Positions 42,303 through 42,421 of a stretch of 43,876 nucleotides of DNA are shown here, piece by piece; within the stretch, counting starts at the first letter, position 1; every line of letters begins with the position of its first letter. Where the stretch lies: IMG/VR virus record IMGVR_UViG_3300020577_007897; one strand, given 5' to 3'. A model generated the notes under the pieces. That model saw only the letters and a program-made list of their open reading frames with translations. It searched no databases and was not told where the DNA came from. Made by a program: the position numbers and the translations under genes. The stretch is from a virus. Its lineage: Duplodnaviria; Heunggongvirae; Uroviricota; Caudoviricetes.

Positions 42303-42421
42303 GGTATTGGTTCAGCAAAACAACCGCAAGGTAGCTCATTGGTAGAGCATCTGTCTATAAAACAGAAAGTAGTTGGTTCAAATCCGACCCAATCTCGAAA
42401 GAGATGCAAAAAACAATACCG
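42303..42421 (+). ncRNA. CAGCA-stem ncRNA with D, anticodon and T arms but no acceptor stem
   Basis: GGTATTG/CAATACC; GCTC-ATTGGTA-GAGC; TCTGT-CTATAAA-ACAGA; GTTGG-TTCAAAT-CCGAC. Confidence 0.8.

What the first reader, a model, noticed from the sequence alone, without database searches (positions are those of the whole stretch)
42303..42421. Non-permuted tRNA core with an ATA anticodon on a Ro-type stalk
It has canonical D (GCTC-ATTGGTA-GAGC), anticodon (TCTGT-CT-ATA-AA-ACAGA) and T (GTTGG-TTCAAAT-CCGAC) arms. These are flanked by GNRA hairpins (ACC-GCAA-GGT, TCTC-GAAA-GAGA), and the CAGCA stem takes the place of the acceptor. This is the opposite geometry to YrlA: the anticodon is exposed and the acceptor is replaced, suited to decoying anticodon nucleases or occupying the ribosomal A site.
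Basis: partly seen in the sequence, partly recalled or inferred. Interest (0 to 1): 0.7.

Follow-up and report, generated by a model that had tools for sequence, protein, structure and literature searches.

The report
Phage Y-like RNA displaying an anticodon arm
This 120-base phage gene encodes a small RNA built like a tRNA whose amino-acid-accepting end is replaced by a docking handle for the phage's Ro60-like ring protein, so the anticodon arm is left on show; relatives keep the same scaffold but swap that arm, which suggests it baits something that recognises particular tRNAs.

Summary
It has a 7-bp terminal stem, D, anticodon (CUAUAAA, AUA) and T arms in normal tRNA order, two GNRA hairpins and no usable acceptor stem. 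Rfam's tRNA model matches only positions 6-65, and ARAGORN calls nothing.

It is not a broken tRNA. It sits 255 nt upstream of a DUF2828/DUF7788 gene whose predicted fold matches Ro60. It carries the stem + NUUCAGCAA + A-rich "handle" shared by its sibling cassettes. This scan has already met that handle family on other phage genomes; putting the handle at the acceptor end was not in the notes I retrieved.

A covariance model built only from relatives hits the element end to end. About 18 distinct members exist, one of them in the cultured Stenotrophomonas phage DLP6, and all five helices covary.

Three loci share an identical 88-nt scaffold and differ only within the 17-nt anticodon arm. The window's closest homologues carry UUA or UCA instead of AUA, and one shows a compensatory change in the 3' hairpin.

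The geometry is opposite to YrlA. An anticodon-specific bait or decoy role is plausible but untested, and the specific tRNA-Tyr reading is weakened. I class it as a new variant of a known kind (tRNA-mimicking Y RNAs).

The parts
42303..42309 (+). 5' strand of the 7-bp terminal stem (GGUAUUG) of the handle
   Evidence: Pairs with 42414-42420 in the MFE fold. The homologous stem covaries in relatives: 4 of 7 pairs change on both sides and 100% of cells pair.
42310..42322 (+). 5' strand of the handle's internal loop, GUUCAGCAAAACA, with CAGCA at 42313-42317. Presumed docking motif for the Ro60-like protein.
   Evidence: The same NUWCAGCAA motif follows the terminal stem in the sibling cassettes, in relatives, in Felix O1 and, in permuted form, in phages S13 and Ci1. 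Protein binding is inferred, not shown.
42323..42332 (+). 5' hairpin ACC-GCAA-GGU (GNRA loop). It uses the bases that would be the 5' acceptor strand.
   Evidence: Pair probability 0.92-0.99. Homologue L178 keeps ACC/GGU with a UUAUU loop. There is no covariation, and it competes with GG(42330-31)/CC(42389-90) pairing.
42334..42348 (+). D arm GCUC-AUUGGUA-GAGC, preceded by U8-A9 (42332-42333)
   Evidence: Rfam tRNA alignment. Identical in L178. The D stem covaries across the class, with 4 of 4 pairs changing on both sides.
42350..42366 (+). Anticodon arm UCUGU-CUAUAAA-ACAGA, with anticodon AUA at 42357-42359
   Evidence: Position 34 (42357) is U in other samples. L178 has UCUGA-CUUCAAC-UCAGA with a compensatory 31-39 change. 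This arm is the only variable part of otherwise identical scaffolds in relatives.
42367..42371 (+). 5-nt variable loop AAGUA (class I type, G46 present)
   Evidence: Rfam alignment. It differs from the long variable arm of the phage's own 84-nt tRNA-Tyr at 31282-31365.
42372..42388 (+). T arm GUUGG-UUCAAAU-CCGAC
   Evidence: L178 has GCAGG/CCUGU, with two double compensatory changes. The T stem covaries across the class.
42392..42405 (+). 3' hairpin AUCUC-GAAA-GAGAU (GNRA loop), an insertion specific to the window's lineage
   Evidence: Pair probability 0.88-1.0. 42393 T>C and 42404 A>G occur together in the X11/X17 contigs, changing U-A to C-G in this stem. The hairpin is absent from L178 and from all other class members.
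42406..42413 (+). 3' strand of the handle's internal loop, GC + AAAAAA (A-rich)
   Evidence: An A-rich 3' strand precedes the terminal stem in nearly all class members.
42414..42420 (+). 3' strand of the terminal stem (CAAUACC). No CCA follows.
42677..43876 (+). Ro60-like (TROVE + vWA) protein gene, running off the window end. Presumed protein partner.
   Evidence: Pfam DUF2828 (E = 2e-23) and DUF7788 (E = 5e-25). The predicted fold of a full-length homologue, to which the window fragment is 63% identical, matches phage phiLo Ro60, D. radiodurans Rsr and Xenopus/human Ro60 with E = 1e-8 to 1e-5.
42170..42293 (+). Sibling cassette with the same handle and a permuted (T, closed acceptor hairpin, D) YrlA-like payload
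   Evidence: Weak full-length match to model R1, 27 bits.
41480..41549 (+). Sibling minimal cassette with the same handle: a short hairpin plus an anticodon-arm-like hairpin (UUUGC-ACUUGUAA-GCAAA), no T arm
   Evidence: R1 match of 25.5 bits. Its arm resembles the UUUGC/GCAAA arm of the normal-order class in relatives.

Best explanation
The element is a gene for a ~120-nt Y-RNA-like non-coding RNA that partners the phage's Ro60-like protein. Its handle consists of a 7-bp terminal stem, a 5' GUUCAGCAA strand and a 3' A-rich strand. By analogy with Y RNAs, the ring protein docks on this handle (inferred). Its payload is a complete tRNA body in natural order: U8-A9, D arm, anticodon arm, 5-nt variable loop and T arm, with the canonical tertiary-contact bases. 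The acceptor end has been taken apart: both former acceptor strands are folded into GNRA hairpins, and the handle takes the place of the acceptor end. The particle would therefore hold the RNA at the acceptor end and expose the tRNA elbow and anticodon arm. This is the reverse of YrlA, which is held at the anticodon end.

Comparative data show that the anticodon arm is the part that changes while the scaffold stays fixed. Most likely the arm acts as an anticodon-specific bait. It would bind a factor that reads the anticodon stem-loop of particular tRNAs, most plausibly a host tRNA-targeting nuclease or toxin, and either soak it up or tether it to the Ro-like protein. It cannot be aminoacylated.

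My odds: Y-like partner RNA of the Ro-like protein with a tRNA-body payload, about 0.8. Anticodon arm is the specificity determinant, about 0.6. Bait or decoy for a tRNA-targeting defence, about 0.35.
For: Shown:
- The arms and fold are present and there is no acceptor.
- The downstream gene is DUF2828/DUF7788 with a Ro60-like predicted fold.
- Six or more cassettes in the window share the same handle. So do relatives, Felix O1 next to its homologous gene, and phages S13 and Ci1 in circularly permuted form.
- Model R1 was built from six relatives without the window. It matches 42302-42421 over positions 1-99 at 50.4 bits, its best hit in the window.
- The class occurs in about 23 loci (about 18 distinct sequences), always on the gene's strand, and in the cultured phage DLP6.
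- All five helices covary: 97.7% of cells pair, 17 of 24 pairs change on both sides, 0 of 500 shuffles reach this, and slid controls give 30-45%.
- L016, L087 and L085 share 88 identical scaffold positions. All 13 variable positions lie in the 17-nt anticodon arm (UUU, UCU, CCA). L087 and L085 are 100% identical for 250 nt downstream.
- L011 and L008 differ at only one base across the cassette plus 400 nt downstream, and that base is anticodon position 35.
- The orthologue in other samples keeps all stems. It changes position 34 and makes a compensatory U-A to C-G change in the 3' hairpin, while the neighbouring cassettes carry many substitutions and indels.
- Homologue L178 has an identical D arm, covarying T and anticodon stems, and anticodon UCA.

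From the literature:
- Y RNAs tether Ro60 to partner proteins, and YrlA mimics tRNA (PMC4201824).
- A phage Ro60 binds Y-like RNAs encoded upstream of its gene and recruits host PNPase (PMC12135203).
- A Ro60-like phage protein, Bas63 gp130, counters the Ppl defence system (PMC11482910).
- YrlA has been proposed as a competitive inhibitor of an anticodon nuclease (PMC7790460).
Against: - No protein-RNA binding, RNA ends or expression are shown. The contigs from RNA libraries cannot prove transcription.
- AUA matches no natural bacterial anticodon loop that I know of. Position 34 is polymorphic (A or U), which could equally mean relaxed constraint.
- The window's copy is the most derived member, with two extra hairpins and only a GG/CC acceptor remnant. 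The model places its T arm only as an insertion.
- The junction is ambiguous.
- The uniformly canonical cassette loops, compared with the often deviant loops of the phages' own tRNAs, are confounded by shared ancestry.
- No tRNA-targeting defence is known for the unknown host.
Confidence: 0.6

Rival explanations
1. It is a generic Y-RNA tether. The tRNA body recruits a general tRNA- or structured-RNA-binding enzyme to the Ro-like protein (PNPase as in RYPER complexes, RNase P, a CCA-adding or modification enzyme), and the identity of the anticodon does not matter.
For: This is the established Y RNA mechanism in D. radiodurans, and it has been shown in vitro for phage phiLo Ro60-Yrl with host PNPase (PMC4201824; PMC12135203). 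[quoted passage not shown] Position 34 varies freely.
Against: It does not explain why identical scaffolds differ only in the anticodon arm, with fully compensated stems. It also does not explain why about 64 minimal cassettes carry nothing but an anticodon-arm-like hairpin with tRNA-like loops.
Confidence: 0.2
2. It is a decaying copy. The window's element is a degenerating member of the stalked-tRNA class that has lost its acceptor and drifted to a meaningless anticodon, and it has little or no function of its own.
For: AUA is not a natural bacterial anticodon (own knowledge). There is an A/U polymorphism at position 34. The window lineage has unique insertions. It gets the lowest R1 score among class members, 50 bits against 73-118.
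Against: The canonical tertiary-contact bases are all kept: U8, A14, G18-G19, A21, G46, U54-U55-C56, A58 and G53-C61. No stem changes are listed in two diverged lineages, while the flanking cassettes carry many substitutions and about 18 deleted bases. There is a compensatory change in the lineage-specific 3' hairpin. T and anticodon stems covary with L178.
Confidence: 0.12
3. It has a role linked to stop codons or the ribosome. The sub-lineage's anticodons (UUA, UCA, AUA) point to stop codons or their neighbours. The RNP might compete at the ribosomal A site, or titrate a factor that acts on the phage's suppressor tRNAs. This would connect it to the amber tRNA and amber-containing leader noted elsewhere in this window.
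For: The orthologue has UUA and homologue L178 has UCA, which would read UAA and UGA. The window encodes a CUA tRNA at 41562-41637. Relatives carry CUA and UUA tRNAs.
Against: Without an acceptor end there is no route for EF-Tu delivery (established knowledge of decoding). Most class members carry sense anticodons such as UCU, UUU, UAU and UUC. The pattern rests on three sequences, and the window's own AUA reads a sense codon.
Confidence: 0.06
4. It is a caged tRNA precursor. The handle is a removable leader and trailer, and processing releases a working tRNA.
For: The long members of the class keep 5-6 of 7 acceptor pairs and ARAGORN calls them tRNAs. M. smegmatis YrlA can be cut by RNase P and receive CCA (section heading in PMC4201824).
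Against: The window's element has only GG/CC left of the acceptor and no CCA, and both strands are folded into their own hairpins. One scaffold with a single discriminator context carries Lys, Arg and Trp anticodons, which is hard to reconcile with correct charging (own knowledge of identity rules).
Confidence: 0.02

Closest known systems
YrlA-type Y RNAs of bacteria and mycobacteriophages, with Ro60/Rsr (Chen et al. 2014, PMC4201824)
   Same: A small RNA encoded next to, and on the same strand as, a Ro60-type gene. Its 5' and 3' ends form a stem that carries the presumed protein-binding motif. The rest mimics tRNA with canonical D and T arms.
   Different: YrlA is circularly permuted (T arm, closed acceptor-like hairpin, D arm). 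It has no anticodon arm and is held at the anticodon end. This RNA runs in natural order, has a full anticodon arm and is held at the acceptor end. YrlA's motif is GNCGAAN0-1G, and here it is NUUCAGCAA. No Rfam Y-RNA or YrlA model matches, even at E up to 10.
D. radiodurans Yrn1 (Chen et al. 2014, PMC4201824)
   Same: A Y RNA that, as drawn by the authors, includes a T arm and a potential 'anticodon arm' with a 5-bp stem. It tethers Rsr to PNPase.
   Different: According to the paper, Yrn1's loop has 6 nt, there is no full D arm and no V region. The RNA here is a complete tRNA body with a 7-nt loop, U33 and A37. No sequence comparison was done.
Thermus phage phiLo Ro60 with Yrl1 and Yrl2 (PMC12135203; PDB 9KOP, 9L5Y)
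   Same: A phage-encoded Ro60 with several Y-like RNAs encoded just upstream of its gene. It is the best structural match of the protein model.
   Different: The phiLo RNAs are described as stem-bulge-stem RNAs with a CGAA motif and no tRNA features. The protein here belongs to Pfam DUF2828/DUF7788 and has no sequence-level PDB match.
CAGCA(A)-handle RNAs of phages with a DUF2828 Ro60-like protein
   Same: The same handle and the same protein partner. Other architectures include permuted tRNA bodies, short anticodon-arm mimics, and whole tRNAs with the handle inside the anticodon arm, as in phages S13 and Ci1.
   Different: This member places the handle at the acceptor end of a natural-order tRNA body. 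That architecture was not in the notes I retrieved. It is rare: about 13 of about 340 candidate cassettes.
Phage tRNAs that neutralise tRNA-targeting defences (for example phage tRNA-Tyr against Retron-Eco7, PMC11555353 and PMC12673091)
   Same: A phage-encoded tRNA-shaped RNA proposed to blunt host attacks on tRNA.
   Different: Those are working, chargeable tRNAs that replace or out-compete the cleaved host tRNA. This RNA has no acceptor and is presumably protein-bound. Retron-Eco7 cuts the long variable loop of tRNA-Tyr, which this RNA lacks.

Membership tests
YrlA (Y RNA, tRNA-mimicking type) | Encoded within a few kb of a Ro60-type gene and on the same strand | tested here: met
   It lies 255 nt upstream of a DUF2828/DUF7788 gene on the same strand. 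The predicted fold is Ro60-like.
YrlA (Y RNA, tRNA-mimicking type) | GNCGAAN0-1G motif near the 5' end (PMC4201824) | tested here: not met
   The 5' strand reads GGUAUUGGUUCAGCAAAACAACC and contains no GNCGAA.
YrlA (Y RNA, tRNA-mimicking type) | Permuted order: T arm, closed acceptor-like hairpin, D arm, with no anticodon arm | tested here: not met
   The order is D, anticodon, T.
YrlA (Y RNA, tRNA-mimicking type) | Match to a curated Rfam Y RNA or YrlA model | tested here: not met
   A permissive cmscan (E up to 10) of 42100-42720 against all 4227 Rfam families gave only the tRNA hit and two chance-level hits.
tRNA (Rfam RF00005) | D, anticodon and T arms with conserved loop bases | tested here: met
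   49.2 bits against a gathering score of 29, over model positions 6-65.
tRNA (Rfam RF00005) | 7-bp acceptor stem joining the 5' and 3' ends, with a discriminator base and CCA end | tested here: not met
   3 of 7 possible pairs, only GG/CC contiguous. ARAGORN makes no call. No CCA is present. Homologues L178, L016, L087, L085 and L103 keep 5-6 of 7 pairs and are called by ARAGORN.
CAGCA(A)-handle phage Y-like RNAs (uncatalogued) | 6-8 bp terminal stem that covaries between members | tested here: met
   The 7-bp stem pairs in 100% of cells, and 4 of 7 pairs change on both sides. The stems differ between the window's own cassettes.
CAGCA(A)-handle phage Y-like RNAs (uncatalogued) | N2-3 + CAGCA(A) directly 3' of the 5' stem strand, with an A-rich strand 5' of the 3' stem strand | tested here: met
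   GUUCAGCAAAAC and GCAAAAAA. My cassette finder required this motif, so the independent support comes from S13/Ci1 (found through tRNA annotation) and from the R1 model hit.
CAGCA(A)-handle phage Y-like RNAs (uncatalogued) | Bound by the DUF2828 Ro60-like protein | not testable with these tools
   Only co-location and co-orientation across many phages are shown.
Ro60/TROVE protein (for the neighbouring gene) | HEAT-repeat ring plus vWA domain fold | tested here: met
   Foldseek top hits are 9kop, 9l5y, 2nvo, 1yvr, 2i91 and 9nen, with E = 2e-8 to 2e-5 and TM 0.41-0.56. The model is only moderate (pLDDT 65, pTM 0.50).
Ro60/TROVE protein (for the neighbouring gene) | Sequence-level match to Ro60 or the Pfam TROVE domain | tested here: not met
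   Pfam gives only DUF2828 and DUF7788. phmmer against PDB finds nothing below E = 0.1.

The most novel reading that the evidence does not exclude
Large phages run a programmable 'anticodon display'. A Ro60-like ring protein carries a library of handle RNAs, and their interchangeable anticodon arms act as RNA baits that neutralise host tRNA-targeting immunity one tRNA species at a time. The arms occur either on full tRNA bodies held at the acceptor end, as here, or as bare hairpins. Arm swapping on a fixed scaffold would be the phage's way of retargeting. The window's sub-lineage (AUA, UUA, UCA) would be the branch aimed at whatever reads stop-codon-type or Tyr-type anticodon loops.
Probability: 0.3. 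Interest if true: 0.85.

Novelty: new variant of a known kind. Interest (0 to 1): 0.62.

Why it matters
Why Y RNAs mimic tRNA has been an open question since 2014. Published Y RNAs lack a true anticodon arm, so nobody could ask whether anticodon identity matters. This class provides that arm and a natural experiment: identical scaffolds with swapped, fully compensated anticodon arms, and near-identical phages that differ at a single anticodon base. The question therefore becomes directly testable, by arm swaps, pull-downs and plating on hosts with tRNA-cleaving defences. A cultivable phage that carries the class, Stenotrophomonas phage DLP6, is available for this work. If the bait idea holds, it would be a new RNA-based counter-defence principle. 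It would also give a function to a Ro60-like protein family found in more than 700 sequenced phages.

Tried and rejected
- **DNA search of the phage collection:** a blastn search with 42100-42720 found nothing. An exact-pattern search for the D-plus-anticodon arm in IMG/VR also found nothing.
- **Closer relatives:** neither IMG/VR nor the metagenome collection holds a relative with more than 64% protein identity. True orthologues could therefore be seen only through laid contigs.
- **No whole genome is held** for this window.
- **First cassette finder:** it was too loose and gave many hits in coding DNA, so I replaced it. The later census is still heuristic, pre-imposes the motif and misclassifies a few entries (for example L001 3897-4080 and L032/L037).
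- **First alignment:** MAFFT with the window included misplaced the D stem. I rebuilt the model without the window.
- **Homology-type junction:** I considered GCA/UGC plus GG/CC for the window. It is about 8-9 kcal/mol worse than the MFE and has zero ensemble probability, so I do not prefer it.
- **Alternative acceptor pairing:** I considered ATTGG (42306-10) with CCAAT (42389-93). The T>C change at 42393 in relatives breaks that pairing and is compensated within the 3' hairpin instead.
- **Copying from real tRNAs:** the anticodon arms are not copies of real tRNA arms in the fetched DNA. The core is not a recent copy of any of the window's tRNAs.
- **Bas63:** my accession guess landed on another BASEL phage, so I used Felix O1 instead. 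Model R1 finds no normal-order member in Felix O1.
- **L179:** its 477-aa ORF is not the Ro-like protein.
- **Promoter and terminator scan:** nothing convincing near the element.
- **RNA-library contigs (X11, X17):** they cover the element but cannot show transcription, RNA ends or strand.
- **Literature:** a search for DUF2828 with phage found no paper.
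Full report
**1. What is in the sequence**

The window is a large T4-like phage fragment. It has 29 ARAGORN tRNAs between 29.5 and 41.6 kb. A gene starts at 42677 and runs off the window end.

The element at 42302-42421 (+) reads, in order:
- terminal stem GGUAUUG
- GUUCAGCAAAACA
- ACC-GCAA-GGU
- A
- GCUC-AUUGGUA-GAGC
- A
- UCUGU-CUAUAAA-ACAGA
- AAGUA
- GUUGG-UUCAAAU-CCGAC
- CCA
- AUCUC-GAAA-GAGAU
- GC
- AAAAAA
- CAAUACC

Each arm has a pair probability of 0.8-0.99.

Rfam's tRNA model matches at 49.2 bits. That is as good as many of the phage's real tRNAs, but the match covers only model positions 6-65. ARAGORN does not call it.

My own cloverleaf scan gives 3 of 7 acceptor pairs here, against 6-7 for the real tRNAs. 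No CCA follows.

The bases that make the tRNA tertiary contacts are all present: U8, A14, G18-G19, A21, G46, U54-U55-C56, A58 and G53-C61 (read).

**2. The neighbour is a Ro60-like protein**

The 400-aa open fragment matches Pfam DUF2828 and DUF7788. It has no sequence-level match in the PDB.

I predicted the structure of a full-length homologue using a 16-sequence alignment that included the window's fragment. Confidence is moderate (pLDDT 65, pTM 0.50). Foldseek's top matches are the TROVE/Ro60 structures of Thermus phage phiLo (9kop, 9l5y), D. radiodurans Rsr (2nvo) and Xenopus and human Ro60, with E = 2e-8 to 2e-5. vWA domains follow for the C-terminal half.

"Ro-type" is therefore justified by fold, not by sequence family. 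tblastn finds homologues in 710 phage records.

**3. The handle**

The window's other cassettes are at 39247, 40688, 41481, 42171, 42433 and 42586. They share one frame with different stem sequences: a 6-9 bp terminal stem, then N2-3 + CAGCA(A) and an A-rich run, then the payload, then an A-rich 3' strand back into the stem.

The same frame (UAGGNUNN-NUWCAGCAA ... AAAAA-NNANCCUG) recurs many times per locus in 160 related contigs. It occurs four times directly after the homologous gene of Salmonella phage Felix O1.

In Cronobacter phage S13 and Citrobacter phage Ci1, 113-121-nt "tRNA-OTHER/Pseudo" genes lie next to the homologous gene. They are whole tRNAs with a hairpin plus UAUUCAGCA inserted in the anticodon loop, which is the same module in circularly permuted form.

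CAGCA faces a strand that cannot pair with it, so it is a motif and not a stem. YrlA's proposed Ro-binding motif GNCGAAN0-1G (PMC4201824) and phiLo's CGAA (PMC12135203) are absent. No Rfam Y-RNA model matches, even at E up to 10.

Earlier notes of this scan describe the same handle family on other phage genomes. Those notes were leads. The points above were re-derived here.

**4. A conserved class with the handle at the acceptor end**

A scan of the relatives for D-anticodon-T cores without acceptors found the same architecture on CAGCA stalks. I built covariance model R1 from six such relatives, leaving the window out.

R1 matches window 42302-42421 over all 99 positions at 50.4 bits (E about 1e-9). 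That is its best hit in the window and is above every real tRNA there.

Clear members (73-118 bits) occur in:
- 13 IMG/VR loci and 10 metagenome loci
- L178/L179
- the cultured Stenotrophomonas phage DLP6, KU682439 104926-105018, at 68 bits with anticodon UUC

This comes to about 18 distinct sequences, always on the strand of the Ro-like gene.

On the model-guided alignment, 97.7% of cells pair. 17 of 24 pairs show changes on both sides. No shuffle out of 500 reaches this, and sliding the partners drops pairing to 30-45%. Because the alignment was fitted to the model, these numbers lean its way. The compensatory changes are nevertheless plain by eye.

The class is a minority payload. There are about 13 of about 340 candidate cassettes, against about 77 permuted YrlA-like and about 64 that hold only an anticodon-arm-like hairpin (heuristic).

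**5. The acceptor end varies along a range**

Long members are the L016/L087/L085 scaffold, L103 and L178. They keep UUAUNNN/NNNAAAA, with 5-6 of 7 pairs and a recurrent A3-A70 mismatch. ARAGORN calls them tRNA-Lys, -Arg, -Trp or "SeC".

Short members keep 3 covarying pairs directly against the D stem.

The window's copy keeps only GG/CC. Compared with its nearest homologue L178, the 5' UUAUU has become GCAA, giving the ACC-GCAA-GGU hairpin (L178 has ACC-UUAUU-GGU). A 14-nt GNRA hairpin has been inserted in the 3' strand.

The finding's own refutation test was a hidden acceptor that would make this an ordinary tRNA. That test fails for the window, although the class clearly descends from, or still borders on, whole tRNAs.

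**6. The anticodon arm is the variable part**

L016, L087 and L085 carry a 105-nt cassette that is identical at 88 positions. All 13 variable positions lie within the 17-nt anticodon arm:
- UUUCC-CUUUUAA-GGAAA
- UUCGA-CUUCUAA-UCGAA
- UCUGU-UUCCAAC-ACAGA

Each arm is fully paired. L087 and L085 are also 100% identical for 250 nt downstream.

L011 and L008 are identical across the cassette and 400 nt downstream, except for anticodon position 35 (UCU against UUU).

Anticodons seen in the class are UCU, UUU, UAU, UUC, CCA, UCA, UUA and AUA. The minimal cassettes show UGU, UUU, UCU, GGA, GUU, GCA, GUA and others on covarying stems.

Cassette loops are uniformly C32...A38. The phages' own free tRNAs with the same anticodons often deviate: C38 in 14 of 36 UCU tRNAs and U32 in 24 of 36 UGU tRNAs. 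This fits mimicry of a host-type loop, but shared ancestry confounds it and the host is unknown.

**7. The window's own lineage**

Public runs from river and plastic-surface metagenomes hold the stretch. I laid contigs from four runs on it.
- **X7 (DNA):** 42340 T>A in the D loop and 42349 A>G at position 26.
- **X11 and X17 (two metatranscriptome libraries from one study):** 42349 A>G. 42357 A>T, which is position 34, so AUA becomes UUA. Also 42393 T>C together with 42404 A>G.

Positions 42393 and 42404 pair with each other in the 3' hairpin, so that change is a compensatory U-A to C-G.

No change is listed in the handle or in the D, anticodon or T stems. The neighbouring cassettes carry at least 8 substitutions plus about 18 deleted bases (42200-42271) and 15 substitutions (42424-42534). 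A few rows of that table were not shown, so up to two more substitutions could lie in the element.

These are contigs. They show presence and variants, not transcription.

L178, on a different terminal stem, has an identical D arm, two double compensatory changes in the T stem, a compensatory 31-39 change, and the loop CUUCAAC, which is UCA.

So the sub-lineage shows AUA, UUA and UCA. Two of the three would read stop codons, and the window phage also has a CUA tRNA at 41562.

**8. Mechanism**

Shown:
- the architecture
- its conservation
- its association with a protein of Ro60-like fold
- the concentration of variation in the anticodon arm

Inferred:
- The handle docks the protein. This rests on analogy with Y RNAs (PMC4201824) and with phiLo Ro60-Yrl (PMC12135203).
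- The particle exposes the elbow and anticodon arm.
- The arm baits an anticodon-reading factor.

The bait idea fits three published points. Hughes et al. suggested that YrlA might competitively inhibit an anticodon nuclease (PMC7790460). A Ro60-like phage protein, Bas63 gp130, counters the Ppl defence (PMC11482910). Defence systems that cut specific tRNAs are increasingly known.

The specific tRNA-Tyr reading is weak:
- The loop differs from the phage's own tRNA-Tyr loop (CUGUAAA) only at position 34.
- However, the core has a 5-nt variable loop. Retron-Eco7 is reported to cut within tRNA-Tyr's long variable loop and to depend on it, and a Septu abstract reports the same site.
- From my own knowledge, colicin E5 needs G or Q at position 34.

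**9. Comparison and novelty**

The RNA works like a Y RNA of the tRNA-mimic kind. It fails three of four YrlA membership features: the motif, the permuted order and the Rfam model.

It belongs to the uncatalogued CAGCA(A)-handle family, which the scan has already met elsewhere. Within that family, a natural-order tRNA body held at the acceptor end is an architecture I did not find in the papers searched or in the retrieved notes.

The nearest published hint is the incomplete "anticodon arm" that Chen et al. drew for D. radiodurans Yrn1.

I rate it a new variant of a known kind. Its interest is well above average because of the swapped-arm evidence and the ready experimental handles.

Noticed in passing
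L016:2428-2532, L087:266-370, L085:2344-2448: The three 105-nt cassettes are identical at 88 positions. Every difference lies in the 17-nt anticodon arm (UUU, UCU, CCA), and each arm is fully base-paired. L087 and L085 are also 100% identical for 250 nt downstream. This looks like targeted replacement of the arm. The mechanism is unknown.
   Followed up: partly
L011:3702-3801 vs L008:4257-4356: The two contigs are identical over the cassette and 400 nt downstream except for one base, the middle anticodon position (UCU against UUU). Upstream they are unrelated (about 50% identity), so a recombination boundary lies at the cassette's 5' edge.
   Followed up: partly
L175:3222-4054 (Salmonella phage Felix O1, NC_005282, about 23872-24704): Four handle cassettes (AGACCNNN-UACAGCAA...NNNGGUCU) lie directly after Felix O1's Ro60-like gene. 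One is a 125-nt permuted YrlA-like form. Bas63, whose Ro60-like gp130 counters Ppl, is as far as I recall a Felixounavirus. These RNAs may therefore be the partners that the PhageMaP paper suspected among the annotated tRNAs.
   Followed up: partly
L004:4395-4515 and 4525-4637; L002:4391-4505 and 4512-4625; L001:4211-4324: Genes annotated 'tRNA-Ser', 'tRNA-OTHER' and 'tRNA-Pseudo' in phages S13 and Ci1, plus an Rfam tRNA hit at L001:4211-4324 in BUCT-ZZ01, are complete tRNAs with a 50-55-nt insert in the anticodon loop. In S13 and Ci1, where I read the sequence, the insert is a hairpin plus UAUUCAGCA. This is the handle in permuted position, next to the homologous protein gene.
   Followed up: partly
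L178:3105-3176 and L179:4184-4255: ARAGORN calls the window element's homologue 'tRNA-SeC (tca)'. It is a class I body with a weak acceptor (UUAUUGG/CCAAAAC) inside a CAGCA stalk. No free UCA tRNA was seen in any fetched locus. Whether it can act as an opal suppressor is open.
   Followed up: no
window 35364-35439 and 35526-35599, and free tRNAs of the related loci: The phage's real tRNA-Arg(UCU) has the loop CUUCUAC (C38), and its tRNA-Thr(UGU) has UUUGUAA (U32). Such deviant loops are common among the relatives' free tRNAs, but handle cassettes with the same anticodons always keep C32...A38.
   Followed up: partly
window 33888-33980: tRNA-Ile (UAU) is 93 nt long, with a variable region of about 22 nt in my scan. 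That is unusual for an Ile tRNA. Rfam scores it at 58 bits.
   Followed up: no
window 42100-42600, runs X11 and X17: Two metatranscriptome-library contigs from one plastisphere study (2473 and 1887 nt) span the cassette array from upstream, and both end at 42600. Separate contigs resume at 42646. Because they come from the same study and are contigs only, this says nothing firm about transcript ends.
   Followed up: no
L145:621-685, L160:120-183, L035:4078-4143, L028:3482-3545: These 64-66-nt cassettes carry the same UUUGA-CUUCUAA/CUUUUAA-UCAAA arm as the full normal-order members L011 and L008, but lack D and T arms. They look like deletion derivatives, or precursors, of the full form.
   Followed up: no
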